Source of the DNA: Deltaproteobacteria bacterium YD0425bin51
Lineage (GTDB): Bacteria > Desulfobacterota > Desulfobacteria > Desulfobacterales > YD0425bin51
Assembly (NCBI GenBank): GCA_002753225.1
Contig: PDZS01000015.1
Span: forward strand, 27,223-91,222
Direction of reading: 5' to 3'
DNA: 64,000 bases
The notes beneath the pieces are model-generated. The model was not told the DNA's origin. It searched no databases and saw only the letters and a list, made by a program, of their open reading frames with translations. Both the position numbers and the translations under genes were made by a program. This document shows, piece after piece, positions 5,261 through 30,888 of this stretch. Within the stretch, counting starts at the first letter, position 1. Each line of letters starts with the position of its first letter.

Positions 5261-5923
5261 TTATTTTCCTAATAAAAAATCAATTAGAGGTGTTGCAAAA
5301 AAATTAATTACTTTGTTTAAAGAATCTGTTGCTAAAAGAATCATTATTATTATTAAACCAAAGCGCTCAATAGAGTTAAAACTTTCTCGTATTTTGTCTG
5401 GCAAAAATATTGCTAAAATACGGCTGCCGTCTAGAGGAGGGATGGGAATAAGATTAAATACAGCTAATACTGAATTTATGATTATGCTGTTTATAAGCAT
5501 ATAAAGAAGATCCATAATAATTGGTTTTAATAAGGTAGTGGCCCATGACTTCTCAAAATAAATGAAAATATGCAGAATTATGGCTGACAAAACTGCTAAA
5601 ATAAAATTAGCTGTAACGCCTGCAGCAGAAACATAAATAGTACCTTTTTTAAAGTTATGAAAATTATAAGGGTTTACTGGTACTGGCTTTGCGTATCCAA
5701 AAATAAATGGTGAGCCGGAAAGTTTTAAGAGCAAAGGGAGAATAATTGACCCTACAATATCCAAATGGTATATAGGATTTAAAGTAAGTCTTCCAGCTAG
5801 TTTTGCTGTCATATCTCCCATTTTATATGCAACATATCCATGTGCAACTTCATGGCATGTTACAGAAAGAATAAGAGGAACAAGCATTACCACCCATTTA
5901 TTTAATTCAATATCAAGAGACAT
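5261..5923 (-). CDS. Site-2 protease family zinc metalloprotease (M50, SpoIVFB-like)
   Basis: 220 aa polytopic membrane protein with HEVAHGYV (HExxH) in the first TM region and a later LDG motif. Overlaps the upstream gene by 11 nt. Confidence 0.8.
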   Translation of the reverse strand: MSLDIELNKWVVMLVPLILSVTCHEVAHGYVAYKMGDMTAKLAGRLTLNPIYHLDIVGSIILPLLLKLSGSPFIFGYAKPVPVNPYNFHNFKKGTIYVSAAGVTANFILAVLSAIILHIFIYFEKSWATTLLKPIIMDLLYMLINSIIINSVLAVFNLIPIPPLDGSRILAIFLPDKIRESFNSIERFGLIIIMILLATDSLNKVINFFATPLIDFLLGK

Positions 5924-8555
5924 AATTTTTCACAAAAGAAAGTTCATCTTCTCTGTTTGATAGAAGACCGTTTAGTTTTGCATCCAAAACTGCGTTTAAA
6001 ATTTTGCCATAAATTGGTCCTTCTTTTATATTTATGGCTCTTAAATCCTTACCAGTTATTGAAATTTTTTCATTTTTAAGCTGTGTCAAATAAAATGATA
6101 TAGCTTTTTTAACTTTTTCATATTTTGTTTGAGCCATCATATAAAGTATAAGCTCAGTTTTAAATATAGAGAGTTTACTATAAAGCAAGCTGTTTTGAGT
6201 AGGTAAGTTTTGCTCTAGCCAGAAAAGAATTTGATTAGCTATTATTCTTTCTTTGGAAAAAATATCTCTCTGACGAACAGGAAGTTCAAAATTGTTACAT
6301 ATTTCTTCACTGATTTTTTGATCTAAATTTTTAAGAAGCGCTAGAAAATAAATGGCCCATTTCATTAATCTTTCTTCTAAAAAAAGCAAATCATGCCATG
6401 CTAATGTTTTTTTTACTGAATCAAGTTGGGATATTATTTCTTTATTTAATTTAATTAATGGGTGTATCGCACTTAAAAGATTATAATCATTCAATCTAAT
6501 GATTGCATTTGTTGGATTTTCTTCTTCTAATATTTGTTTTACTTCAGCAAAAACTCTTCTACCACTTAAGCGTTTAAAAAAATCCATTTTCACTGCATTT
6601 TCAATAAGACTGGAAGTTAACTTACCTATTGTAAATCCAAATCTTTGTTCAAATCTTATTGCCCTGAAAATTCGGGTTGGGTCTTCAACAAAGCTAAGGT
6701 TATGTAAAACTCTAATAATTTTTTCCTTTAAGTCTTTTTGTGAACCAAAAAAGTCAATAAGAGTGCCAAATTTATCATGGTTTAACTGAATAGCTAAAGC
6801 ATTTATTGTAAAATCCCTTCTGAATAGATCTAATTTTATTGAACTCATTTCAACAACAGGGAGTGCTGCTGGAAATTTATAATATTCTATTCTAGCAGAT
6901 GCTACATCTATTTTAGATCCATCAGAAAACTTGATAATCGCTGTTCCAAAGGTTTCGTGAGAATATATCTTTGCTTTAAATATAGATGCAAATTTTTTAG
7001 CAAAAGCTATTCCATCCCCTTCTATTACAATATCAATATCTTCGTTAGTTTTATATAGAAATAGATCTCTTACAAAACCTCCTACTATATAGGCGTTTAA
7101 ATTGAGTTCATCTGCTATTTTTCCTATATCTTTAAGCTTTTTTATTAAACGATCAGATAATCTTTCATTCATGAATTTTATAATATTTCTGGTTCTAGGT
7201 CCTACAGACTCATTTAAATATATATTTCCTTTATCTGATTTTATATGGGTTTGATATACAAGTACATTCAAAAGATCAGTTCTTGTTATAACACCTATAA
7301 GCTTATTATTATCAACAACTGGTAAAATTCTCTGTTTATTATCAATTATTTTTGTCTGTATTTCACTAAGATGAGCGTCAGGATTTACAGTTACAATTTC
7401 TGTATTCATATATTCACAAACAGGTACTATATCCAATTTATGAAACAGAGCTTTTTCAATGATCTGTCTGGATATAAAACCAAGGATAGAATCATTATCA
7501 GTTACTATAAGAGTATTTATATTATAGCGTGTTAAAATTGTGCTTGCTTCCCTGCAGGTTACATTTGGCGAAATTGTAATAACCGGGAATGACATAAGCT
7601 CTTTTGCATAACGTCTTGCTTTAATTTTTTGATAAAGAGTGCTTATAAGCTTTTGTTCAACTTGAGTAAGAGTTTCTCCTTTAACTGTAGCTGATGCTGC
7701 AAAACTATGTCCTCCACCCCCAAATGTTAATAAGATATCTGCTACGTCAACTTCAGAAATTCTGCTTCTTGCAACTATATAAATATTATCAGCCATTCTA
7801 GCTATTACAAAAATAGCATTTAGATTCTCCATTTTAATAATTTTTTGTACTAGAAGTGCAATGTCTGCTACATAATTATCTCTGGAAAAAATTGTAATTA
7901 CTATATCAACGCCATGAATGCTGTAATGAGTTAAGGACTGAATCATGTCGCTAAGTAGTCCTATTTGCTCTGGTGTTATTTCTCTTGATATGAGGTTAGC
8001 TATAATATTTAAATTAGCACCTTTGGATAATAAAAAAGCAGCGGCGCTGAAATCTTTTTCTGTTGTTGAAGAGTAAGTAAATGAACCTGTGTCTTCATAT
8101 ATACCAAGACACATTATTGTAGCTTCATCTGGAGATATGGGAATTCCTTTATTTTTTATTATTTCAGTTAATATAGTTATAGTTGCTCCTGTTAATTCAT
8201 TTACTTCAAAATTGCTTTTGATATCGTTTATTGCTGGAGGATGGTGATCATAAATATGAATCTCAATATTTGATTGTTGAAGAAGAGAAGAAAGCTTTCC
8301 GATGCGATTAGCTTGTCTTGTATCTACTAAAACTAGTCTTTTTACAGAAGAAAGATCTATATCTTTAATATCTGCCATATTAAAAAGATAGAATATGGAT
8401 TTTATGAAAAAGTTTCTTAAAGTTTTTTCTTGAGAGCCTGGAAAAACTAAAAGAGCATCTGGATAGAGCTTTTGAGCAGCAAGCATTGAGGCTACAGCGT
8501 CAAAGTCAGAATTTATATGGGTTGTAATAACAGTAAGGTTTTGATTATTTTGCAT
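5913..8555 (-). CDS. Multidomain DHH/DHHA1 phosphoesterase - CBS pair - poly(A) polymerase/CCA tRNA nucleotidyltransferase family protein
   Basis: 880 aa. The N-terminus has DHH (HINSDFDAVAS, YDHHPP) and DHHA1 (GGGGHSFAAS). The middle has two CBS modules. The C-terminal half carries the Pol-beta NTase head GGFVRDLFL...DIDIV plus the tRNA-NT tail. Confidence 0.75.
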   Translation of the reverse strand: MQNNQNLTVITTHINSDFDAVASMLAAQKLYPDALLVFPGSQEKTLRNFFIKSIFYLFNMADIKDIDLSSVKRLVLVDTRQANRIGKLSSLLQQSNIEIHIYDHHPPAINDIKSNFEVNELTGATITILTEIIKNKGIPISPDEATIMCLGIYEDTGSFTYSSTTEKDFSAAAFLLSKGANLNIIANLISREITPEQIGLLSDMIQSLTHYSIHGVDIVITIFSRDNYVADIALLVQKIIKMENLNAIFVIARMADNIYIVARSRISEVDVADILLTFGGGGHSFAASATVKGETLTQVEQKLISTLYQKIKARRYAKELMSFPVITISPNVTCREASTILTRYNINTLIVTDNDSILGFISRQIIEKALFHKLDIVPVCEYMNTEIVTVNPDAHLSEIQTKIIDNKQRILPVVDNNKLIGVITRTDLLNVLVYQTHIKSDKGNIYLNESVGPRTRNIIKFMNERLSDRLIKKLKDIGKIADELNLNAYIVGGFVRDLFLYKTNEDIDIVIEGDGIAFAKKFASIFKAKIYSHETFGTAIIKFSDGSKIDVASARIEYYKFPAALPVVEMSSIKLDLFRRDFTINALAIQLNHDKFGTLIDFFGSQKDLKEKIIRVLHNLSFVEDPTRIFRAIRFEQRFGFTIGKLTSSLIENAVKMDFFKRLSGRRVFAEVKQILEEENPTNAIIRLNDYNLLSAIHPLIKLNKEIISQLDSVKKTLAWHDLLFLEERLMKWAIYFLALLKNLDQKISEEICNNFELPVRQRDIFSKERIIANQILFWLEQNLPTQNSLLYSKLSIFKTELILYMMAQTKYEKVKKAISFYLTQLKNEKISITGKDLRAINIKEGPIYGKILNAVLDAKLNGLLSNREDELSFVKNYVS

Positions 8556-20563: not shown

Positions 20564-21589
20564 ATGGAACTATCACTTGGCGAGGTAACAAAACTTGTTT
20601 CAGGAAATTTGATTGGTAATCCAGATAAAAAAATTTATGGAGTTGCCCCTTTTGAGAATTCAACAGAGCTTGATATCACTTATGCTGCAGCTCCAAAATT
20701 TTTAAAACAAATTGAAAACACGCACGCTTGCGCTGTTATTGTTCCAAAATCATTTAAAGAAGGAAATAAATTCCTTATTCAAGCAGATAATCCCCAAATT
20801 GCTTTTATTAAAGTATTATCTGCTTTTCACAAACCACTAAAACCACGATACACTATCTCCGAATCAGCATATATTGGAAAAAATGTAATTTTAGGCAAAA
20901 ATGTTTCAATTGGTCCTTGTGCTGTTATTCAGGATAATGTGAAAATAGGAGATAGAGTTACTATTCATCCAGGAACTGTTATAGGAAATGATGTTCAAAT
21001 TGGAGATGATACGCTGATTTATCCAAATGTCACTATTTTAGATCGTTGTATTTTAGGGAAACGTATTATTATTCATTCAGGTACAGTAATTGGAAGTGAT
21101 GGTTTTGGTTTTGCTTATGATGGTAAAATGAACCATAAAATTAATCATATAGGGATTGTTCAAATAGATGATGATGTTGAAATAGGCGCAAATAATACTA
21201 TAGATAGAGGTACTTTTGGAAAAACATGGATCAAAGATGGAGTAAAGACAGATAATTTAGTTCATATAGCTCATAATGTAACAATAGGCGAAAATAGCAT
21301 AATTGTTGCTCAAGTTGGAATAGCTGGAAGCACAAAGCTTGGAAAACGTGTCATATTGGGAGGACAGACCGGAGTTGCTGGTCATATTACAATTGGCGAT
21401 AATGTTATGGTTGCAGGTCAATCTGGAGTTAGCAAATCTGTTCCAGAAGGTAAAATTGTATCAGGAACCCCTGAGATGCCTCATGATACGTGGTTAAAAG
21501 TTCAAGCTATTATACATAGATTACCTGAAATGAGAAAAAAAATAATAGATTTAGAAAAACAATTAAATGAATTAAAAGCAAAGGATTAA
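20564..21589 (+). CDS. lpxD: UDP-3-O-(3-hydroxyacyl)glucosamine N-acyltransferase
   Basis: 341 aa. N-terminal LpxD domain and left-handed beta-helix hexapeptide repeats; sits in the skp-lpxD-lpxA context. Confidence 0.9.
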   Translation: MELSLGEVTKLVSGNLIGNPDKKIYGVAPFENSTELDITYAAAPKFLKQIENTHACAVIVPKSFKEGNKFLIQADNPQIAFIKVLSAFHKPLKPRYTISESAYIGKNVILGKNVSIGPCAVIQDNVKIGDRVTIHPGTVIGNDVQIGDDTLIYPNVTILDRCILGKRIIIHSGTVIGSDGFGFAYDGKMNHKINHIGIVQIDDDVEIGANNTIDRGTFGKTWIKDGVKTDNLVHIAHNVTIGENSIIVAQVGIAGSTKLGKRVILGGQTGVAGHITIGDNVMVAGQSGVSKSVPEGKIVSGTPEMPHDTWLKVQAIIHRLPEMRKKIIDLEKQLNELKAKD

Positions 21590-21593
21590 TTTT

Positions 21594-22364
21594 ATGATAC
21601 ATCCAGCCGCAATTGTTGATCCAACAGCTAAAGTAGCATCTGATGCTGAGATAGGACCTTACACTGTAATTTCTCATGATGTCATTATCGGAAGCGGAAC
21701 AATTATTGGACCTAACGTTGTAATTGAACCTTATACTGAAATTGGTCCAAAATGCAGGATTTTTCAATTTGCTTCCATTGGCGCAATTCCTCAGGCTATT
21801 AAATTTGAGGGTGAAAAAACACTTTTAAAAATTGGCGGAGGAACTGTCATTAGGGAGTTTGTAACAATTAATCGTGGAACAGGATTTGGGGGAGGAAAAA
21901 CAGAAGTTGGAGAGGAAAACTTTTTAATGGCATATAGTCATATTGCACATGACTGCAAAACAGGAAAAAGAGTAGTTCTCGCTAATAATGCAACTTTAGC
22001 TGGACATATTACTATTGGTAATTATGCAACAATAGGAGGGCTTGTTGCTATACATCAATTTGTCAAAATCGGAGACTATGCATTTGTTGGTGGAAAATCT
22101 GCTGTTGTTAAAGATGTTCCTCCATTTGTCATTGCATCAGGTGATAGAGCAAAGTTATATGGACTGAATTCTGTAGGTCTTAGGCGAAATGGTTTTACAG
22201 ATGAAAAATTGATTCTTTTAAAGAAGGCTTATAGAATTATATTTAGAATCGGGCTTGCTTTAAATGAAGCTATACAGCGTGTTAGAGCAGAGATAGAACA
22301 GATTCCAGAAGTTGTTGAATTTATATCTTTTATTAAATCTTCTGAAAGAGGAATTACTCGTTAA
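21594..22364 (+). CDS. lpxA: Acyl-ACP--UDP-N-acetylglucosamine O-acyltransferase
   Basis: 256 aa. Begins MIHPAAIVDPTAKV like LpxA, with hexapeptide repeats and the C-terminal helical domain. Confidence 0.9.
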   Translation: MIHPAAIVDPTAKVASDAEIGPYTVISHDVIIGSGTIIGPNVVIEPYTEIGPKCRIFQFASIGAIPQAIKFEGEKTLLKIGGGTVIREFVTINRGTGFGGGKTEVGEENFLMAYSHIAHDCKTGKRVVLANNATLAGHITIGNYATIGGLVAIHQFVKIGDYAFVGGKSAVVKDVPPFVIASGDRAKLYGLNSVGLRRNGFTDEKLILLKKAYRIIFRIGLALNEAIQRVRAEIEQIPEVVEFISFIKSSERGITR

Positions 22365-22371
22365 TTTAAAT

Positions 22372-23175
22372 ATGAATAAAATAGGACTTATTGCTGGCAA
22401 TGGGCAGTTTCCCATTATGTTTGCAAAAAAAGCTAAAGAAAAAGGTATATCAGTTTATGCTGTTGCTCATATAAATGAAACAGAAGAAAGCTTAAAAGAT
22501 TTTGTTTTTAAGATTGAATGGATACATGTGGGACAGCTTAAAAAACTGATAGATATGTTTAAGTCCAATGGTGTAACAGATGCAGTAATGGTTGGCGGAA
22601 TTAAGAAAACTAGAATGTTTTATGATGTAAAACCAGATATTAAAGCTATAAAACTTATATCCAATATAAAAACCACTCATGATGATGGACTGCTTAGAGC
22701 TGTTGCTGATACAATAGAACAAGAAGGAATTACAATAAAAGCCTCTACTTTTCTTATGCCTGAACTTATAGCTGATAAAGGATGCTGGACAAAAAGAAAG
22801 CCTAGCCGTACTGAAAGAGCAGATATTGATATAGGCTGGAAAATAGCAAAAGAGCTTGGAAAACTAGATGTTGGGCAATCCGTTGTAGTCAGCAAGAGAT
22901 CAGTTCTGGCATTAGAAGCTATAGATGGGACTGATGCTACAATTTCAAGAGCTGGAAATTTGGCTAAAGCTGAAGAAATAGTAGTTGTAAAAGTCTGCAA
23001 GCCTAATCAGGATATGCGTTTTGATGTACCAGCAATTGGTTCAAAAACAATACAAACAATGTATGAGGCAAAAGCTACAGCTCTTGCAATTGAAGCAGGA
23101 AAAGCTCTTGTTTTTGATAAAGAAGAAATGGTAAGTTTGGCTAATAAATTTAATATTTCTATAATTGCTTTATAG
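22372..23175 (+). CDS. lpxI: UDP-2,3-diacylglucosamine pyrophosphatase LpxI (DUF1009)
   Basis: Begins MNKIGLIAGNGQFP as LpxI proteins do, with the LpxI_C region (DVPAIGSKTIQTMYEAKATALAIEAGK). Lies between lpxA and lpxB. The track start at 22312 is a TTG overlapping lpxA. Confidence 0.72.
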   Translation: MNKIGLIAGNGQFPIMFAKKAKEKGISVYAVAHINETEESLKDFVFKIEWIHVGQLKKLIDMFKSNGVTDAVMVGGIKKTRMFYDVKPDIKAIKLISNIKTTHDDGLLRAVADTIEQEGITIKASTFLMPELIADKGCWTKRKPSRTERADIDIGWKIAKELGKLDVGQSVVVSKRSVLALEAIDGTDATISRAGNLAKAEEIVVVKVCKPNQDMRFDVPAIGSKTIQTMYEAKATALAIEAGKALVFDKEEMVSLANKFNISIIAL

Positions 23176-23185
23176 GTTTATTTTT

Positions 23186-24142
23186 ATGAAAAAAATTCGA
23201 GTAGGCGTTGTTGGCGTTGGATATCTTGGAAAATTCCATGCAGAGAAGTATGCAAATATTGAAGATGTTGAACTTGTAGGTGTTGTTGATGTAAATCATG
23301 AAAATGCTTGCAAAATAGCTGAAAATGTCAAAACCAGACCTTATTGTAATCATAAAGAGCTTATAGGTAAAGTAGATGCTGTAAGCATTGTTGTTCCAAC
23401 ACAATTTCATTTTTCTGTTGCCAAGGATTTTTTAGAAAATGGAGCTGATGTTTTAATAGAAAAACCAATAACAACAACTGTTGATGAAGCAGATGAATTA
23501 ATAAAAATTGCCAATTCAAAGGGCTTAATTATACAGGTAGGTCATCTGGAAAGATTCAATCCTGCAGTTTTGGCTGTGAAAGATATTGTAAATAAACCAA
23601 TTTTTATAGAATCCCATCGCTTGGGAATTTATAAAGAAAGAGGAATTGATGTAAGCGTAGTTTTAGATCTGATGATTCACGATATTGATATTATAAGAAG
23701 TTTTGTAAAATCAGATATAAAAGAACTAAGAGCTTCAGGCGTTGCTGTTATATCCTCAAATATTGATATAGCAAATGCTAGAATTGAATTTAAAAGCGGA
23801 TGTGTGGCAAATGTAACAGCAAGTCGAATTTCCATGAAAAACGAGCGCAAGATAAGACTATTTCAAAAAGATGCTTATGTATCTGTTGATTTTGCAAATC
23901 ATGAAATTGTTGTAATACAGCCTACAGAAGGTAAAACAGGAGATGAACTGATTCCTGGCATGAATATTAATAAGCGTTCTTTTGATAAAAGCGACGCTCT
24001 ATACGAAGAATTAAAATCATTTGTAAAATCAGTTAAAAACCGTGAAACTCCAGAAGTTTCAGGAATTGTTGGAAGAGATGCCTTAAAGGTTGCTCTGAAT
24101 ATAATAGATCAAATAAAAATTTCCATGCCCTCATATCCATAA
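23186..24142 (+). CDS. Gfo/Idh/MocA family NAD(P)-dependent oxidoreductase (possible UDP-GlcNAc 3-dehydrogenase GnnA)
   Basis: Rossmann N-terminus MKKIRVGVVGVGYLGKFH, a conserved EKP motif and the GFO_IDH_MocA C-domain. Its position between lpxI and lpxB is what suggests GnnA. The track start at 23165 is TTG. Confidence 0.78.
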   Translation: MKKIRVGVVGVGYLGKFHAEKYANIEDVELVGVVDVNHENACKIAENVKTRPYCNHKELIGKVDAVSIVVPTQFHFSVAKDFLENGADVLIEKPITTTVDEADELIKIANSKGLIIQVGHLERFNPAVLAVKDIVNKPIFIESHRLGIYKERGIDVSVVLDLMIHDIDIIRSFVKSDIKELRASGVAVISSNIDIANARIEFKSGCVANVTASRISMKNERKIRLFQKDAYVSVDFANHEIVVIQPTEGKTGDELIPGMNINKRSFDKSDALYEELKSFVKSVKNRETPEVSGIVGRDALKVALNIIDQIKISMPSYP

Positions 24143-24149
24143 AATTCTA

Positions 24150-24569
24150 ATGAAATTCGTCAAGAATGAAATAATAATTAAAAAAGTTCAGCAAGAATTA
24201 GATAAAATAGAATCTGTAGTATCTGCCTATATTTTTGGATCTATTTTGAAAAAGGGTGTTTTTAACGATATTGATATTTTGATACTTCTAAACAATCAAG
24301 CAGATAAAAATTCTATATTCTTAGAATTACCTTGTAATTTGGCTAGATCTTTAAATATTTCTTCTAATAAAATTGATATTCTTAATTTTGATCTAAGAGA
24401 AGCAAATCCTATTGTTTTAATTAAAGCAGTCAAAGGAAGATTAATTAAAAATGTAGATGATGAACTCTTAACAGACAAATTAGAAGAACTATCATGTTTT
24501 TTTTTAATGAATGAGCCTATTTTATATTATAGAAAAGAGCTTTTGAGAGAATTATTATATGAATATTGA
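24150..24569 (+). CDS. Minimal nucleotidyltransferase (MNT) antitoxin of a HepT/MNT toxin-antitoxin pair
   Basis: 139 aa. GSILKKGVFNDIDILI matches the GSx(n)DxD NTase signature. Overlaps the downstream HepT gene by 11 nt. Confidence 0.7.
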   Translation: MKFVKNEIIIKKVQQELDKIESVVSAYIFGSILKKGVFNDIDILILLNNQADKNSIFLELPCNLARSLNISSNKIDILNFDLREANPIVLIKAVKGRLIKNVDDELLTDKLEELSCFFLMNEPILYYRKELLRELLYEY

Positions 24570-24894
24570 TGTATATAGGATTTCTCAATACCTAAATGAA
24601 ATAGATGAACAAATCTCCTTGATAAATAAAATCCTTAAAACAGATGATAACGAACTTCTAAATGATTTAATTAAGCTTAATGCTCTCAAATATTCTGTGA
24701 TTCTTATCTCAAGCGAGCTAAAAATAAAATTAAAACCTTTTTTTCGAGTTAGAAATATGATCGTTCATAGATACTGGAAATTAGATAATTCAAATTTTCT
24801 TAAGGATTTAAGACAAGGTGTTGAAGATTTTCGTGAATTTCATGTTGAAGTCAAACAATTTTTACAGGGTTGTGTAAATGAAAAATCCCTTTGA
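24559..24894 (+). CDS. HepT-like (DUF86, HEPN) toxin
   Basis: 111 aa. RNMIVHRYW matches the HEPN Rx4HxY motif. Overlaps the MNT gene. Confidence 0.7.
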   Translation: MNIDVYRISQYLNEIDEQISLINKILKTDDNELLNDLIKLNALKYSVILISSELKIKLKPFFRVRNMIVHRYWKLDNSNFLKDLRQGVEDFREFHVEVKQFLQGCVNEKSL

Positions 24895-26023
24895 ACAAAA
24901 ATGCGTTATGATTATTGCTGGAGAAGCATCAGGGGATCTTCATGGCTCAAACTTAGTTTATGCAATGCGGAGAAAATGCAGCTCTATTTTTTTTTGTGGC
25001 ATTGGCGGCGAAAGGTTAAAGGATAGCGGGGTAAGAATTCTATTTGATGCTGCAAAATTATCTGTAGTTGGAATTACTGAAGTCATTTCAAAACTTCCAA
25101 CTATTTTAAAAGGTATGAATATTTCCAAAAATACTTTAAAAATCTTAAAACCTGATCTTTTGATTTTAATTGATTTTCCTGATTTTAATTTTGTAGTAGC
25201 ATCTTATGCTAAAAAGCTTAATATTCCTGTTCTCTATTATATAAGTCCTCAAGTTTGGGCTTGGAGGCAGGGAAGGGTGAAAAAAATCAGAAAATTAGTA
25301 GATCACTTAGCTGTTATTTTACCTTTTGAAGCTTCTTTTTTTAAAAAACATGATGTTCCAGTAACATTTGTTGGTCATCCCCTTCTTGATCACTTAAGCT
25401 TAGAACCAATAAAAAAAATACCGCAAATTGTTTCAGCAATAGGTCTTTTGCCTGGTTCACGAAATAGTGAAATTAAAAAACTTTTGCCTACAATGATAGA
25501 GACAGCAGAGGTTTTGACTAAACGTATAGGTAATATTAAATTTATTCTTTCTGTATCTCCAACAGTAGACAGATTGTATGTAGAAAAAATTATAAATACT
25601 TATCAAAAAGAGAGTGTTATTGAAATATCAACAGATAATGTTTATGAAGTTTTTAAAAGAAGTATTATGGTAATCGCAGCATCTGGAACAGTAACTTTAG
25701 AAGCTGCAATTGCCTGCATTCCTACTGTAATTATTTATAAAGTATCATCTTTAAGCTATTTTTTAGGTAAAGCATTGATAAAAGTCAATTTTATAGGTTT
25801 AATTAATCTTATTGCAGGTGAAGAAATTTTCCCAGAACTTCTGCAAAAAGAAGCAACACCAGAAAATATTTCTGAAATAGTTTATAAAATGATAAGTACG
25901 CCATCTACTCTGAATCAAATAAAAGATAAGCTTTTCAATGCTAGAAAACTGTTAGGTGAACCAGGCGCTTCAAACCGCACCGCAGATATTGCAATTAATA
26001 TGCTCGAAGGTATGAAAATATGA
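24878..26023 (+). CDS. lpxB: Lipid-A-disaccharide synthase
   Basis: 381 aa with a GT-B fold. Begins MIIAGEASGDLHGSNL, characteristic of LpxB. Confidence 0.9.
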   Translation: MKNPFEQKCVMIIAGEASGDLHGSNLVYAMRRKCSSIFFCGIGGERLKDSGVRILFDAAKLSVVGITEVISKLPTILKGMNISKNTLKILKPDLLILIDFPDFNFVVASYAKKLNIPVLYYISPQVWAWRQGRVKKIRKLVDHLAVILPFEASFFKKHDVPVTFVGHPLLDHLSLEPIKKIPQIVSAIGLLPGSRNSEIKKLLPTMIETAEVLTKRIGNIKFILSVSPTVDRLYVEKIINTYQKESVIEISTDNVYEVFKRSIMVIAASGTVTLEAAIACIPTVIIYKVSSLSYFLGKALIKVNFIGLINLIAGEEIFPELLQKEATPENISEIVYKMISTPSTLNQIKDKLFNARKLLGEPGASNRTADIAINMLEGMKI

Positions 26024-27747
26024 CAGATAGATATAAAAACTTACTTCTACTTATAAAAGAAAACTGGCATAGACTAGTTTTAGCAATGTTTTGCATGCTA
26101 CTTGTCTCTATTGCAACATCAGTAACAGCTTTTTTAGTAAAACCTGTTTTAGATGACATATTTTTTAAACAAAACGCAAAAATGTTAATATTTATACCTA
26201 TTGCAGTTGTTTTTGTATATTTAATTCGTGGAATTGGATCTTATGGCCAAGAATATCTGATGAATTATGTTGGAGAGAGTATTATTAAACATTTGCGTGA
26301 TAGTCTTTATTATAACATACAAGATTTACCACTCTCTTTTTTTCATAAAGAAAAAACAGGTGTTTTAATGTCAAGGATTACAAATGATGTAAATATTGTA
26401 AAAACTATGGTATCGACTGCTGTAACTAGCTCCCTTAGGGATATCTTCACAATCTTAGGTTTGACTATTGTTATTTTTTATAGAGATTGGATAATGGCAT
26501 CTTTTGCTTTTATTGTTTTGCCAATAGCTTTTTTTCCTATTGTCAAATTTGGGAGAAAAGTTAGAAAGGTAAGTACTGGAAGGCAAGAAGTGATGGCAGA
26601 TTTAAATACTTTTCTGCATGAAACATTTTCAGGAAATATGATTGTTAAAGCTTTTTGTATGGAAGAATATGAAAAAAAGAGATTTTTTGAAAAAACAAAG
26701 AATCTATTCAGGCTTGAAATGAAGGCAGTAGTTGCAAAGTCTCTTTCTTCACCAATTATGGAATTTTTAGCAGGAGTAGGTATTGCTTTTATAATCTGGT
26801 ATGGAGGATATATGGTAATAAAAGGGACATCAACTCCTGGTACATTTTTTTCTTTTATGGCTGCAGTACTTATGCTCTATGATCCAGTAAAAAAATTGAG
26901 TAATTTAAATAATGCTGTTCAAGAGGGAATTGCTGCTGCAAACAGGGTCTATGATATAATTGAAAAAAAATCAGAAATAAAAGAAATTGAGAATCCTATT
27001 CTTCTTAAGCAGGGACCACATAATATTAATTTAAAAAATGTTTATTTTAAATATGACGAAAATAGTACAGTTTTACATGATATAAATTTAAATGTGCTAT
27101 CAGGTGAAATAATAGCCTTAGTTGGCGAAAGCGGAGGAGGAAAAACTTCTCTGGTAAATTTAATTCCCAGATTTTATGATGTAAGTTCTGGATTGATCTT
27201 AATTGATGATATAGATATTCGAAATATATCATTACATTCACTCAGGAGCCAAATAGCAATTGTAACGCAGAGCCCCATCCTTTTTAATGATACTATAAGG
27301 AATAATATAGCTTATGGTAATTTAGATGCAAATGAAGAAGATATAATAAATGCAGCGAAAGCAGCATTTGCTTACGAATTTATTGAAAGTTTTCCTGATA
27401 AATTTAATACAAATATTGGGGAGCTTGGTAGCCGACTTTCTGGAGGGGAAAAACAGCGCCTTTGCATAGCAAGAGCTATACTAAAAAATGCTCCTATACT
27501 TATTATGGATGAGGCAACTTCTTCATTAGACGCTGAATCTGAGATGTGGGTGCAAAAAGCCCTTGAAAATTTGATGAAGGGACGTACAACATTTGTTATT
27601 GCCCATAGATTGTCTACAATAAGTTATGCAAATAAAATTATAACAATTGTAGATGGTAGAATTGTTGAAGAGGGTACACATGAAGAGCTTATGGCTCTTT
27701 GCGGAGAATATTACAAATTACATCAGATGCAGTTTTCCCAAGAATGA
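26020..27747 (+). CDS. msbA: Lipid A export ATP-binding/permease protein MsbA
   Basis: 575 aa. Six-TM ABC exporter domain plus NBD (GESGGGKTS, LSGGEKQR, ILIMDEATS), directly after lpxB. Confidence 0.88.
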   Translation: MTDRYKNLLLLIKENWHRLVLAMFCMLLVSIATSVTAFLVKPVLDDIFFKQNAKMLIFIPIAVVFVYLIRGIGSYGQEYLMNYVGESIIKHLRDSLYYNIQDLPLSFFHKEKTGVLMSRITNDVNIVKTMVSTAVTSSLRDIFTILGLTIVIFYRDWIMASFAFIVLPIAFFPIVKFGRKVRKVSTGRQEVMADLNTFLHETFSGNMIVKAFCMEEYEKKRFFEKTKNLFRLEMKAVVAKSLSSPIMEFLAGVGIAFIIWYGGYMVIKGTSTPGTFFSFMAAVLMLYDPVKKLSNLNNAVQEGIAAANRVYDIIEKKSEIKEIENPILLKQGPHNINLKNVYFKYDENSTVLHDINLNVLSGEIIALVGESGGGKTSLVNLIPRFYDVSSGLILIDDIDIRNISLHSLRSQIAIVTQSPILFNDTIRNNIAYGNLDANEEDIINAAKAAFAYEFIESFPDKFNTNIGELGSRLSGGEKQRLCIARAILKNAPILIMDEATSSLDAESEMWVQKALENLMKGRTTFVIAHRLSTISYANKIITIVDGRIVEEGTHEELMALCGEYYKLHQMQFSQE

Positions 27748-28835
27748 AAATTATAACCCGCTATATATTCAAGGAAATGCTCCCCCCTTTTTTTATAAAT
27801 ATCATATTTTTCACTTTTATTTTCTTAATGGTTCAGCTTTTAGAAATTACTAACATGGTAGTTAATTATCAAATGAGTATAATAGTTGTTGGGCTTATGC
27901 TTGTTTATTCAATGCCTTATTTTTTAGTCTTTGTAATTCCAATGTCTGTTATGATGTCAGTTTTATTAACTTTTTTAAGACTATCAAGCGATAATGAAAT
28001 TGTAGCTTTAAAATCTTGCGGTTTTAGCAATTATACATTTTTAAGACCTGCATTTTTGTTTGCATTTATTGGTTGGGCAATCACTTCTTTAATGATTATT
28101 TATGGTATGCCAAATGGGGAAATGGCATTTAAAGGTTTAATCTCTAAAATAGCTCAATCCAGCTTGCATATTGGACTGAAAGAAAGAACTTTCAACGATA
28201 GCTTTAAAGGTGTCACGATCTATGTATCCAAAATTAATCCCAAAGATAAATCTCTTCAGGACATATTTATAGAAGATCAAAGAACAGAGAACATGATTAG
28301 CACAGTTATTGCACCAAAAGGAGTTATTTTAAAAGATATTAATCAAAATATCTTTCATCTGAGACTACATGATGGAACTATAAATCAAGTTTCTCTTGAG
28401 AGAAAAACAACAAATGCCATTCATTTTGATGTATATGATGTTAAACTTGATTTAGAAAAAGCAATTTCAGGTGTAAAAACTGATACAAAATCTGAAAAAG
28501 AGATGCTGCTGTCAGAGCTTAAAGATACATTAAAGAGTAAGACAAGAGATAGGAAATATTATGCAGCAGCAATAGAATTTCATAAAAAGTTTTCAATACC
28601 TTTTTCATGTATTGTTTTAGGATTCCTTGCTGTGCCTCTGGGATTACACGCTAAATCTTCAAGACCTTCTTTAGGGCTTGGTCTTGGACTTATTTTTTTT
28701 CTTCTTTACTACCTATTATTATCAGCAGGGAGAGTTTTTGCTGAAAAGGGGACATTTCCGCCGGAAGTCGGCATGTGGTCCCCTAATATTTTAATGGCTT
28801 TAATTGGTATATATTTATTTTATAGACGTCTATAA
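27744..28835 (+). CDS. LPS export ABC permease, LptF/LptG (YjgP/YjgQ) family
   Basis: Begins MKIITRYIFKEM, the typical YjgP/YjgQ start. Six TM helices with a periplasmic beta-jellyroll. The ATG overlaps the msbA stop (ATGA). Confidence 0.75.
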   Translation: MKIITRYIFKEMLPPFFINIIFFTFIFLMVQLLEITNMVVNYQMSIIVVGLMLVYSMPYFLVFVIPMSVMMSVLLTFLRLSSDNEIVALKSCGFSNYTFLRPAFLFAFIGWAITSLMIIYGMPNGEMAFKGLISKIAQSSLHIGLKERTFNDSFKGVTIYVSKINPKDKSLQDIFIEDQRTENMISTVIAPKGVILKDINQNIFHLRLHDGTINQVSLERKTTNAIHFDVYDVKLDLEKAISGVKTDTKSEKEMLLSELKDTLKSKTRDRKYYAAAIEFHKKFSIPFSCIVLGFLAVPLGLHAKSSRPSLGLGLGLIFFLLYYLLLSAGRVFAEKGTFPPEVGMWSPNILMALIGIYLFYRRL

Positions 28836-30471: not shown

Positions 30472-30888
30472 TCATTCAAAAATATCTATAATGGAAAGTT
30501 CTATATTAAAGAGATTATCAATAACTTTGTCATCAGAATATGTTTTATAATGATCCAAACTGGAATAAATCACAATGCTTTTTGCATGAGGTATAACTAG
30601 CCAACAAGATTTAATTCCAGCATTAAAATATATTTCAAATTTATCTATTAAATCTTGAATAGGTTGAGTAGGAGACAATATTTCAATTGTAACTAATGGC
30701 AATTCAACCATTTTAATAATATCTTTTTGTTGGATCCTTTTTTTTTTAGAATATATGCTAATGTCTGGCTTATGTTCTACTCCATTAATTTCAATACTTA
30801 ACTCTGGGAATATTTCATACTTGTCTATATTTCCCAAAAGTCTTATAAGCCTTCCATGTACAAAACTATGATTGAATGATGTCATCAT
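30472..30888 (-). CDS. Uma2-family (DUF820) restriction-endonuclease-like protein
   Basis: 138 aa. PDISIYS ... IEILSPTQ ... YF.AG ... CWLVIP matches the Uma2 PD-(D/E)xK-like core. Confidence 0.5.
   Translation of the reverse strand: MMTSFNHSFVHGRLIRLLGNIDKYEIFPELSIEINGVEHKPDISIYSKKKRIQQKDIIKMVELPLVTIEILSPTQPIQDLIDKFEIYFNAGIKSCWLVIPHAKSIVIYSSLDHYKTYSDDKVIDNLFNIELSIIDIFE

What the first reader, a model, noticed from the sequence alone, without database searches (positions are those of the whole stretch)
24150..24894. MNT/HepT toxin-antitoxin pair embedded inside the lipid A biosynthesis operon
An overlapping MNT (GSx...DID) and HepT (Rx4HxY) pair sits between the lpxI-associated oxidoreductase and lpxB. 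It is co-directional with lpxD-lpxA-lpxI upstream and lpxB-msbA-lptFG downstream, and it overlaps the lpxB start. TA modules are normally in accessory regions. One interrupting an essential, otherwise syntenic envelope operon is unusual, and it occupies the position where a gnnB-type aminotransferase would be expected.
Basis: partly seen in the sequence, partly recalled or inferred. Interest (0 to 1): 0.6.

Follow-up and report, generated by a model that had tools for sequence, protein, structure and literature searches.

The report
Disarmed toxin-antitoxin pair inside lipid-A operon
A copy of the very common MntA/HepT toxin-antitoxin cassette has landed between two genes of the lipid A operon of an uncultured Desulfobacterales bacterium, but its toxin gene has lost a quarter of its length, so this is most likely a disarmed remnant and a curiosity, not a new system.

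Summary
Two overlapping + strand ORFs, 24150-24569 (139 aa, MNT nucleotidyltransferase) and 24559-24894 (111 aa, HepT-like), fill the gap between a GnnA-like Gfo/Idh/MocA oxidoreductase and lpxB. The HepT stop overlaps the lpxB start by 17 nt.

The pair is a lineage-specific insertion. In 111 related gfo-lpxB junctions (69 genomes, 42 metagenome contigs), 104 have gaps of 132 bp or less (genome median 14 bp). Five hold a DegT/GnnB-type aminotransferase. None holds an MNT or HepT.

The antitoxin is intact: all family-invariant catalytic residues are kept, the AF2 model has pLDDT 92, and the 13 significant PDB fold matches are all MNT antitoxins. The toxin is not intact. It has an in-frame 36-residue internal deletion compared with its full-length relatives (135-152 aa), although R65-x4-H70-x-Y72 survives. 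Other damaged HepT copies occur in the same subfamily.

The best reading is a type VII-like MntA/HepT cassette with a crippled toxin, co-transcribed passively with the lpx operon; its remnant ORF now abuts the lpxB start. It is a new member of a known kind and of low-to-moderate interest. No close relative of the host (LpxB identity above 59%) was available, so the age of the insertion is unknown.

The parts
20564..21589 (+). lpxD (context, start of the lpx run)
   Evidence: Pfam LpxD and Hexapep. 50-58% identical to relatives.
21594..22364 (+). lpxA (context). No fabZ lies between lpxD and lpxA, unlike in relatives.
   Evidence: Pfam Acetyltransf_11 and Hexapep. fabZ is absent from the window.
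22312..23175 (+). lpxI (the likely true start is the ATG at 22369)
   Evidence: Pfam LpxI_N at 1.7e-40 and LpxI_C at 3.3e-52.
23165..24142 (+). Gfo/Idh/MocA oxidoreductase (GnnA-like, UDP-GlcNAc 3-dehydrogenase-like). Its stop codon is the upstream boundary of the insertion.
   Evidence: Pfam GFO_IDH_MocA at 1.1e-32. NCBIfam NF040723 at 231 bits, below the 450 cut-off. Orthologues sit directly upstream of lpxB in 111 loci.
24150..24569 (+). mntA-like MNT nucleotidyltransferase (putative antitoxin), apparently intact
   Evidence: PF18765 at E=3.9e-9, full-length match. Family-invariant Y27, G30, S31, D40, D42 and near-invariant D76 are all kept. AF2 pLDDT is 92. The 13 PDB fold matches with E<=1e-3 are all MNT antitoxins of HEPN/MNT systems; the best is 7AE2_B at 8.9e-7.
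24237..24275 (+). MNT catalytic motif G30-S31-x8-D40-x-D42
   Evidence: Read from the sequence. These columns are invariant in alignment A3. The spacing is 8 residues, against 10 in the Shewanella MntA motif GSX10DXD (PMC7641770).
24559..24894 (+). hepT remnant: a HEPN/HepT-like ORF with a 36-residue in-frame internal deletion
   Evidence: PF01934 at E=4.5e-8, but only profile positions 71-117/120. Full-length relatives match 1-120/120. BLASTP shows a 36-residue gap against the 142-aa L081 partner. In the exhaustive search, the full-length hits (139-152 aa) match in two stretches. See also alignment A1.
24700..24705 (+). Deletion junction (codons I48 | L49)
   Evidence: Alignment A1, columns 53-88, are absent only from the window protein. 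By alignment this corresponds to Shewanella HepT residues ~45-80.
24751..24774 (+). Retained RNase/AMPylation motif R65-x4-H70-x-Y72
   Evidence: Read from the sequence. N66, H70, Y72 and W73 are invariant and R65 is nearly invariant in A1. RX4HXY is the defining HepT motif, and its Tyr is the AMPylation site (PMC7641770).
24878..26023 (+). lpxB. Its start lies inside the hepT 3' end (17-nt overlap).
   Evidence: TIGR00215 at 306 bits, above the 190 cut-off. The start is supported by the N-termini of L001, L019 and L084.
26020..27747 (+). msbA (context)
   Evidence: ABC_membrane and ABC_tran.
27699..28835 (+). Single lptF/lptG-family permease gene (context, end of the co-directional run)
   Evidence: PF03739 at 2.8e-87. 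The next genes are on the - strand.

Best explanation
A two-gene MntA/HepT (MNT/HEPN, type VII-like) toxin-antitoxin cassette was inserted, in this lineage only, into the normally very short junction between the GnnA-like oxidoreductase gene and lpxB. This junction lies inside a conserved lpxD-lpxA-lpxI-gfo-lpxB-msbA-lptF cluster of an AT-rich uncultured Desulfobacterales bacterium. The antitoxin gene looks fully functional as an adenylyltransferase. The toxin gene has lost 36 internal residues: the second half of the helix carrying the family's 'AEA..LQHILAK' motif, plus the following helix. This most likely cripples the HEPN RNase. The cassette is therefore best read as a disarmed remnant. 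It has no promoter or terminator space of its own, so it is carried along on the lpx operon transcript. Its last codons now hold the lpxB ribosome-binding region and start codon, which would favour keeping the ORF open.

Shown here: the identity of the two domains, the deletion, the absence of the cassette from 111 related junctions, and the tight gene packing. Inferred: loss of toxicity, co-transcription, and translational coupling to lpxB.
For: The HepT-subfamily profile hits solved HepT toxins (7AE9 at 2.4e-7; 6M6U and 5YEP at about 1e-6).

The MNT is intact. The invariant residues Y27, G30, S31, D40, D42 and the near-invariant D76 are kept. The AF2 model has pLDDT 92. The 13 significant fold matches are all MNT antitoxins.

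The HepT is deleted. There is a 36-residue gap against the nearest full-length partner. In the exhaustive search of 1.84 billion representatives, the full-length hits (139-152 aa) align as query 1-48 plus query 49-102 (alignment). Full-length relatives cover Pfam positions 1-120, while the window protein covers only 71-117. AF2 pLDDT drops to 52-54 over residues 51-70, and no PDB fold match reaches E<=1e-3.

The deletion is reproducible. The identical 111-aa protein, next to the identical MNT, is in two NCBI MAG records.

HepT damage recurs in this subfamily. L083 has a different 31-residue deletion. L169 keeps only the C-terminal 45 residues. L166 has the catalytic His changed to Tyr, compared with the 99% identical L167.

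It is an insertion. Across 69 genome and 42 metagenome gfo-lpxB junctions, the genome median gap is 14 bp, and no MNT or HepT was found by tblastn, profile or phmmer search. The nearest homologous pairs sit in ordinary TA settings: next to a Phd/YefM antitoxin, in a PIN-rich island, or after topA.

It is not a recent arrival. GC3 (14-20%) equals that of the neighbours, although total GC (25.0%) is the window minimum.

There is no + strand terminator-like site between 20000 and 29000, and promoter-like sites are not enriched (53 found, 44.3+/-7.3 expected).
Against: Every family-invariant residue in the retained parts of HepT, including R65, H70 and Y72, is still present, and the ORF is open. 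After long neutral decay, these would be expected to erode. So either the deletion is recent or the short protein is still under selection.

The retained parts are only modestly more diverged than expected. HepT/MNT identity to L081 and L164 is 42/54% and 43/55%, against about 47/45% and 49/46% between intact pairs. This is a small sample.

Loss of RNase activity is inferred from sequence and a medium-confidence model. It has not been measured. No close relative of the host (LpxB identity above 59%) was found, so the timing of the insertion and of the deletion cannot be resolved.
Confidence: 0.62

Rival explanations
1. The module is a fully functional type VII TA system. The 111-aa 'mini-HepT' still folds, dimerises and cleaves RNA, and the MNT neutralises it by AMPylating Y72. 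It acts as an addiction or phage-defence module that happens to be driven by the lpx operon promoter.
For: The RX4HXY motif and all invariant residues of the retained segments are intact. The MNT is intact. The ORF is open and identical in two MAG records. A second short HepT (P0010, 110 aa) is also paired with an MNT. The AF2 model is still an all-helical bundle with pTM 0.62.
Against: The deletion removes 36 of about 142-147 residues, including a nearly invariant Gln and the conserved 'AEA..LQHILAK' segment. The match to Pfam and NCBIfam HepT models is partial or below cut-off. Model confidence is lowest at the catalytic helix, and no significant HEPN fold match was found. P0010 has a different deletion and comes from a contig with about 2.4x coverage, so it does not define a short subfamily. 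Other relatives show clearly inactivating lesions.
Confidence: 0.2
2. The pair has been domesticated. The intact MNT, with or without the short HEPN partner, has acquired a host function tied to envelope biogenesis. Examples would be post-transcriptional control of lpxB-msbA-lptF, or nucleotidylation of a different target. This would explain why it is retained in an essential operon.
For: It is tightly packed into the operon: a 7-nt spacer after gfo and a 17-nt overlap with lpxB. GC3 is ameliorated, which suggests long residence. The MNT catalytic residues and the HepT motif are retained despite the deletion.
Against: There is no recurrence of any MNT or HepT in 160 related lpx loci. The nearest homologous pairs are in ordinary TA contexts with no lpx genes. 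Nothing in the sequence points to a new target.
Confidence: 0.08
3. The cassette is ancestral at this site and was lost elsewhere. Alternatively, the ORFs are chance or mis-assembled sequence and not genes.
For: The host lineage is poorly sampled: the best LpxB identity is 59%. The region is very AT-rich (25% GC), and long ORFs arise more easily by chance in such sequence only if stop codons are avoided.
Against: 0 of 111 junctions across Desulfobacterales, Syntrophobacterales, Desulfarculales, Methylomirabilales and others carry it, so an ancestral origin would need many independent precise losses. Both ORFs pass Pfam gathering thresholds. The MNT gives a pLDDT-92 model that matches MNT antitoxins. 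Homologous pairs with 49-54% (MNT) and 42-48% (HepT) identity exist elsewhere. The same sequence is present in two MAG records.
Confidence: 0.04

Closest known systems
Shewanella oneidensis HepT/MntA (SO_3166/SO_3165), the type VII TA prototype (PDB 5YEP, 6M6U, 7BXO; PMC7641770)
   Same: Gene order is the same, mntA then hepT, with overlapping ORFs. The MNT is under 150 aa with a GS...DxD motif and a third Asp. HepT carries RX4HXY, and by alignment the window's Y72 corresponds to the AMPylated Y104. The subfamily profile hits 6M6U_B and 5YEP_B at about 1e-6. The MNT model matches 6M6U_A and 7BXO_A at about 1e-5.
   Different: Sequence identity is only about 20% in the structural alignment. The MNT loop is GS-X8-DxD, not GS-X10-DxD. 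The window HepT lacks the equivalent of SoHepT residues ~45-80. Both proteins score below the NCBIfam equivalog cut-offs (23 and 33 bits against 60). The genomic setting is inside an lpx operon, not a stand-alone module.
Aphanizomenon flos-aquae HEPN/MNT (PDB 7AE2, 7AE6, 7AE8, 7AE9)
   Same: This gives the best structural match for the MNT (7AE2_B, E=8.9e-7) and the best sequence-profile match for the HepT subfamily (7AE9_A, 2.4e-7).
   Different: That toxin is 157 aa (chain length) and complete. The window's short HepT model matches it only at E=0.31.
Closest sequence relatives: MNT+HepT pairs of uncultured Desulfobacterales (L164 from GCA_034520365.1; L081; L166-L168)
   Same: By BLASTP, MNT is 49-55% identical and HepT is 42-48% identical over the aligned parts. 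They share the GS-X8-DID loop and the gene order, and L082 shows the same 11-nt overlap.
   Different: Their HepT partners are 135-142 aa and cover the whole Pfam profile. They lie in accessory or TA-rich settings (Phd/YefM, PIN, CopG neighbours) or after topA, never in an lpx cluster.
GnnA/GnnB arrangement (gfo-type dehydrogenase + DegT aminotransferase upstream of lpxB)
   Same: The window's oxidoreductase is 46-49% identical to the gfo genes that precede a DegT aminotransferase and lpxB in L025, L027 and L076. The TA pair occupies the same physical slot.
   Different: The slot is empty in 104 of 111 related junctions, with gaps of 132 bp or less. No DegT/GnnB homologue occurs in the window. 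The TA proteins are unrelated to aminotransferases.

Membership tests
Type VII HepT/MntA (HEPN/MNT) toxin-antitoxin system | Two adjacent, co-directional small genes, with the MNT gene upstream of the HEPN gene | tested here: met
   24150-24569 and 24559-24894, both on the + strand, with an 11-nt overlap.
Type VII HepT/MntA (HEPN/MNT) toxin-antitoxin system | MNT-fold nucleotidyltransferase with a GS-X10-DXD motif and a third acidic residue (PMC7641770) | tested here: met
   PF18765 at E=3.9e-9. G30, S31, D40, D42 and D76 are conserved. The fold matches MNT antitoxins at E down to 8.9e-7. The spacer is 8 residues, not 10, as in its whole subfamily.
Type VII HepT/MntA (HEPN/MNT) toxin-antitoxin system | HepT carries the RX4HXY RNase/AMPylation motif | tested here: met
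   R65-NMIV-H70-R-Y72. These columns are invariant or nearly invariant in A1.
Type VII HepT/MntA (HEPN/MNT) toxin-antitoxin system | Complete HEPN/HepT domain (full-length match to PF01934; about 135-150 aa helical bundle) | tested here: not met
   Only profile positions 71-117/120 match, against 1-120/120 in relatives. There is a 36-residue internal deletion. No significant HEPN fold match was found.
Type VII HepT/MntA (HEPN/MNT) toxin-antitoxin system | Scores above the NCBIfam equivalog cut-offs (NF047751 HepT_toxin, NF047752 MntA_antitoxin) | tested here: not met
   33.4 and 23.3 bits against cut-offs of 60.
Type VII HepT/MntA (HEPN/MNT) toxin-antitoxin system | HepT is toxic (RNase) and is neutralised by MntA-catalysed AMPylation of the motif Tyr | not testable with these tools
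   This needs expression and toxicity assays and intact-mass spectrometry.
Raetz-pathway lipid A gene cluster (lpxD-lpxA-lpxI-gfo-lpxB-msbA) | The flanking genes are bona fide lpx genes in conserved order | tested here: met
   Pfam and NCBIfam hits (LpxB TIGR00215 at 306 bits, above 190). The same order is seen in most of the 80 genome loci.
GnnA/GnnB UDP-GlcNAc3N branch | A DegT-type aminotransferase (GnnB) accompanies the dehydrogenase | tested here: not met
   tblastn with the L076 DegT protein found no hit better than E=1.6 in the 64-kb window. A gene elsewhere in the genome cannot be excluded.

The most novel reading that the evidence does not exclude
The 111-aa protein is a naturally minimised, still-active HEPN partner. 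The intact MNT plus this mini-HEPN would then have been co-opted as a built-in post-transcriptional or translational-coupling control element for lpxB-msbA-lptF. That would tie LPS synthesis and export to ATP status or stress. It would be the first TA-derived regulator embedded in a lipid A operon, and a minimal HEPN RNase scaffold.
Probability: 0.07. Interest if true: 0.6.

Novelty: new member of a known kind. Interest (0 to 1): 0.25.

Why it matters
[quoted passage not shown] Three things are mildly instructive.

(i) A TA cassette can be tolerated in the middle of an essential, tightly packed envelope operon.

(ii) In this case the toxin is structurally disabled while the antitoxin stays intact. 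Independent lesions in related copies fit the view that chromosomal TA modules are often disarmed after insertion.

(iii) The remnant ORF now overlaps the lpxB start, which is a simple route by which selfish DNA becomes hard to remove.

For annotation, motif spotting (Rx4HxY present) is not enough to call a functional toxin.

Tried and rejected
Exact-sequence contig look-ups for the window MNT and HepT found nothing on record. A cluster look-up did give two NCBI MAG accessions for each protein.

Word-index homologue searches with the single proteins returned almost only self-hits. An alignment-based search and the exhaustive phmmer search were needed.

I searched for closer relatives of the host with LpxB in genome and metagenome collections. 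Nothing above 59% identity turned up, so presence or absence within the genus could not be tested.

In L082, the closest full-length HepT (P0004) is also overlapped by 17 nt by a downstream gene. I checked whether that gene was lpxB. It is not (product MNPQNNNWVVRPL...).

There are no flanking direct or inverted repeats suggesting a mobile-element footprint. Within the ORFs scanned (not every ORF of the 64 kb), no transposase, integrase or other TA gene turned up. No relatives were found in viral contigs (one search failed because the alignment was too diverse). There are no Rfam families or tRNAs in the window.

The promoter/terminator scan gave no enrichment and no internal terminator. It cannot prove co-transcription.

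phmmer of the MNT against PDB sequences found nothing. The relationship to MntA rests on Pfam and on the fold search. PADLOC gave only a weak PDC-S09 hit for the MNT and nothing for HepT.

I rejected recent horizontal transfer. The total-GC dip is real, but GC3 matches the neighbours.

Full report
**1. What is in the sequence**

- ORF 24150-24569 (+, 139 aa) matches the Pfam MNT-type nucleotidyltransferase family Polbeta (PF18765, E=3.9e-9, profile 1-92/93) and NTP_transf_2 (2e-4).
- ORF 24559-24894 (+, 111 aa) matches Pfam HepT-like (PF01934, E=4.5e-8, above the gathering score), but only over profile positions 71-117 of 120.
- NCBIfam's type VII equivalog models are the only hits for both proteins, and both score below cut-off: MntA 23.3 bits and HepT 33.4 bits, against 60.
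- The motifs are G30-S31-x8-D40-I-D42 in the MNT and R65-x4-H70-x-Y72 in the HepT-like protein (read).
- The ORFs overlap by 11 nt.
- The HepT stop overlaps the lpxB start at 24878 by 17 nt. That lpxB start is supported by the nearest relatives, which share the same 10-residue extension before the conserved IIAGEASGD motif.
- The neighbours are LpxD, LpxA, LpxI and a Gfo/Idh/MocA oxidoreductase upstream, and LpxB, MsbA and one LptF/G-family permease downstream, all on the + strand.

**2. Is it an insertion?**

I fetched 80 genome loci and 80 metagenome loci around LpxB relatives. The best are only 57-59% identical and are mostly Desulfobacterales or Desulfosarcina, so the host lineage is poorly sampled.
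- The order lpxD-(fabZ)-lpxA-lpxI-gfo-lpxB is widely conserved.
- Of 69 genome junctions with gfo upstream of lpxB, the median extrapolated gap is 14 bp. The four outliers are L025, L027 and L076 (about 1 kb) and L059 (225 bp).
- Of 42 metagenome junctions, 40 have gaps of 132 bp or less and two have gaps of about 1.1 kb.
- The ~1-kb gaps hold a DegT/DnrJ/EryC1 aminotransferase, that is, a GnnB-type gene.
- No locus holds an MNT or HepT. This was tested by tblastn with the window proteins, by an HMM of the HepT subfamily and by phmmer with the MNT, all at permissive thresholds.
- In the window the gap is 735 bp and is completely filled by the two ORFs.

The cassette is therefore a lineage-specific insertion. 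The gnnB remark applies only to a few distant lineages. The window has no GnnB homologue.

**3. The antitoxin half is intact**

A profile search found 201 relatives, all PF18765.
- In a 34-sequence alignment the invariant columns are Y27, G30, S31, D40 and D42, with D76 nearly invariant. The window protein keeps all of them.
- In Shewanella MntA the equivalent G27/S28 and D39/D41 residues are required for AMP transfer, and D39, D41 and D71 contact the nucleotide phosphate in the AMP-PNP structure (PMC7641770).
- The AlphaFold model is confident (pLDDT 92).
- Its 13 significant PDB matches are all MNT antitoxins from solved HEPN/MNT TA complexes (7AE2_B at 8.9e-7, 7AE9, 6M6U_A, 7BXO_A, 8XEO).
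- The only deviation is a GS-X8-DxD loop where the canonical motif is GS-X10-DxD. The closest relatives share this shorter loop.

**4. The toxin half is not intact**

- BLASTP against the 142-aa HepT that partners the closest MNT homologue (L081) shows one 36-residue gap between I48 and L49.
- The exhaustive phmmer search of 1.84 billion representatives gave 77 hits. The full-length ones (139-152 aa) align in two stretches, query 1-48 and query 49-102, with about 36 target residues unmatched in between.
- The alignment (A1) shows that the missing block is the family's 'AEAxAxTLQHILAK....GY.E...KA....II' segment. It includes a nearly invariant Gln.
- By alignment to 6M6U_B, this corresponds to Shewanella HepT residues ~45-80. 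The same alignment places the window's Y72 on the AMPylated Y104 (PMC7641770).
- Full-length relatives cover Pfam positions 1-120.
- The AlphaFold model of the short protein is mediocre (pLDDT 74.9). It is weakest (52-54) over residues 51-70, which span the junction and the catalytic helix.
- That model has no PDB fold match at E<=1e-3. A HEPN toxin is the top hit, but only at E=0.31, level with designed helical bundles.
- The deletion is not a one-off assembly error. Identical MNT and 111-aa HepT proteins, with adjacent accession numbers, are in two NCBI MAG records.

**5. Relatives of the cassette**

The nearest homologous pairs have MNT 49-55% and HepT 42-48% identical to the window proteins. 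They lie in ordinary TA settings:
- next to a Phd/YefM antitoxin (L081);
- in a PIN-rich island (L166-L168);
- after secDF-dprA-topA and before a CopG-antitoxin region in a 1.4-Mb Desulfobacterales contig (L164).

None is in an lpx cluster. Damage to HepT recurs in this subfamily:
- L083 has a different 31-residue deletion.
- L169 keeps only the last 45 residues.
- L166 differs from the 99% identical L167 by a change of the catalytic His to Tyr.

**6. Anatomy of the insertion**

- Only 7 nt separate the gfo stop from the MNT start.
- No + strand terminator-like site occurs anywhere between 20000 and 29000.
- Promoter-like matches are not enriched (53 found, 44.3+/-7.3 expected).
- There are no flanking repeats suggesting a mobile element.
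- In the ORFs I scanned, no transposase, integrase or other TA gene turned up.
- Total GC of the cassette (25.0%) is the minimum of the window; only 0.2% of equal-sized windows are as low or lower. Third-position GC (14-20%) equals that of the neighbours. The cassette is therefore compositionally ameliorated and not recent.

**7. Interpretation**

The best-supported reading (about 0.6) is a type VII-like MntA/HepT cassette that was inserted into the gfo-lpxB junction and whose toxin has been disabled by an in-frame deletion. It is now carried passively on the lpx transcript, and its 3' end supplies the lpxB initiation region. That would select for keeping the ORF open. Co-transcription, loss of toxicity and translational coupling are all inferences.

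The main counter-evidence is that every invariant residue in the retained HepT segments, including the RNase/AMPylation motif, is still present. So the deletion may be recent, or the short protein may still be selected. I therefore keep three rivals open:
- a functional mini-HepT TA (about 0.2);
- a domesticated role (about 0.08);
- an ancestral or artefactual origin (about 0.04).

**8. Comparison with known systems and verdict**

By gene order, MNT fold and motif, and the HepT motif, it works like, or is derived from, HepT/MntA type VII TA systems (S. oneidensis SO_3166/SO_3165; A. flos-aquae HEPN/MNT). It fails two membership tests: it lacks a complete HEPN domain, and it scores below the NCBIfam equivalog cut-offs. 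I therefore file it as a divergent, degenerate member and not a bona fide active system.

TA cassettes sitting next to or inside housekeeping operons are not unprecedented. From my own knowledge, E. coli mazEF lies downstream of relA. The location here is a curiosity and not a new principle.

Novelty: new member of a known kind. Interest: about 0.25.

Noticed in passing
window 21589-21594 (lpxD/lpxA junction) and the whole window: fabZ is missing from the lpx cluster. lpxD ends 4 nt before lpxA starts, and tblastn with the L001 FabZ finds nothing in the 64 kb. In contrast, 50 relatives have a gap of about 475 bp there, and in L001, the one gap I translated, it encodes FabZ.
   Followed up: partly
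window 27699-28835 (+): Only one LptF/LptG-family permease gene follows msbA, and the next genes are on the opposite strand. The relative L018 has two tandem LptF/G-like genes.
   Followed up: partly
window 42892-45342 (-): An 816-aa protein has a major-vault-protein shoulder domain (PF11978, 7.8e-28) plus an SPFH/Band_7 match. This is a bacterial MVP-like protein.
   Followed up: no
window 30472-30888 (-): A 138-aa Uma2-family putative endonuclease matches only profile positions 28-148/172, so it may be N-terminally truncated. It hits the PADLOC candidate defence family PDC-S03 (2.7e-14).
   Followed up: no
window 5913-8555 (-): An 880-aa protein fuses DHH/DHHA1 phosphoesterase, CBS and poly(A) polymerase/CCA-adding head domains.
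   Followed up: no
L166:6426-6833 versus L167:3653-4078; L169:3009-3143; L083:642-974: There are independent lesions in HepT partners of the same MNT subfamily. L166 has the catalytic His changed to Tyr, compared with the 99% identical L167. L169 keeps only the C-terminal 45 residues. L083 has a different 31-residue internal deletion.
   Followed up: partly
L025:5079-5987, L027:4881-5963, L076:4896-5996, L093:2887-3969, L148:399-1492: In a few Gammaproteobacteria, Methylomirabilis and metagenome loci, a DegT/GnnB-type aminotransferase sits exactly between the gfo (GnnA-like) gene and lpxB. Most Desulfobacterota relatives keep the gfo gene without an adjacent aminotransferase. This raises the question of what the lone oxidoreductase does there.
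   Followed up: partly
window 24150-24894: Identical MNT and 111-aa HepT proteins occur in two NCBI MAG records annotated 'Desulfobacterales bacterium' (MBF0118769.1/MBF0118770.1 and MBF0396687.1/MBF0396686.1). The longest contig is 183,244 bp.
   Followed up: yes
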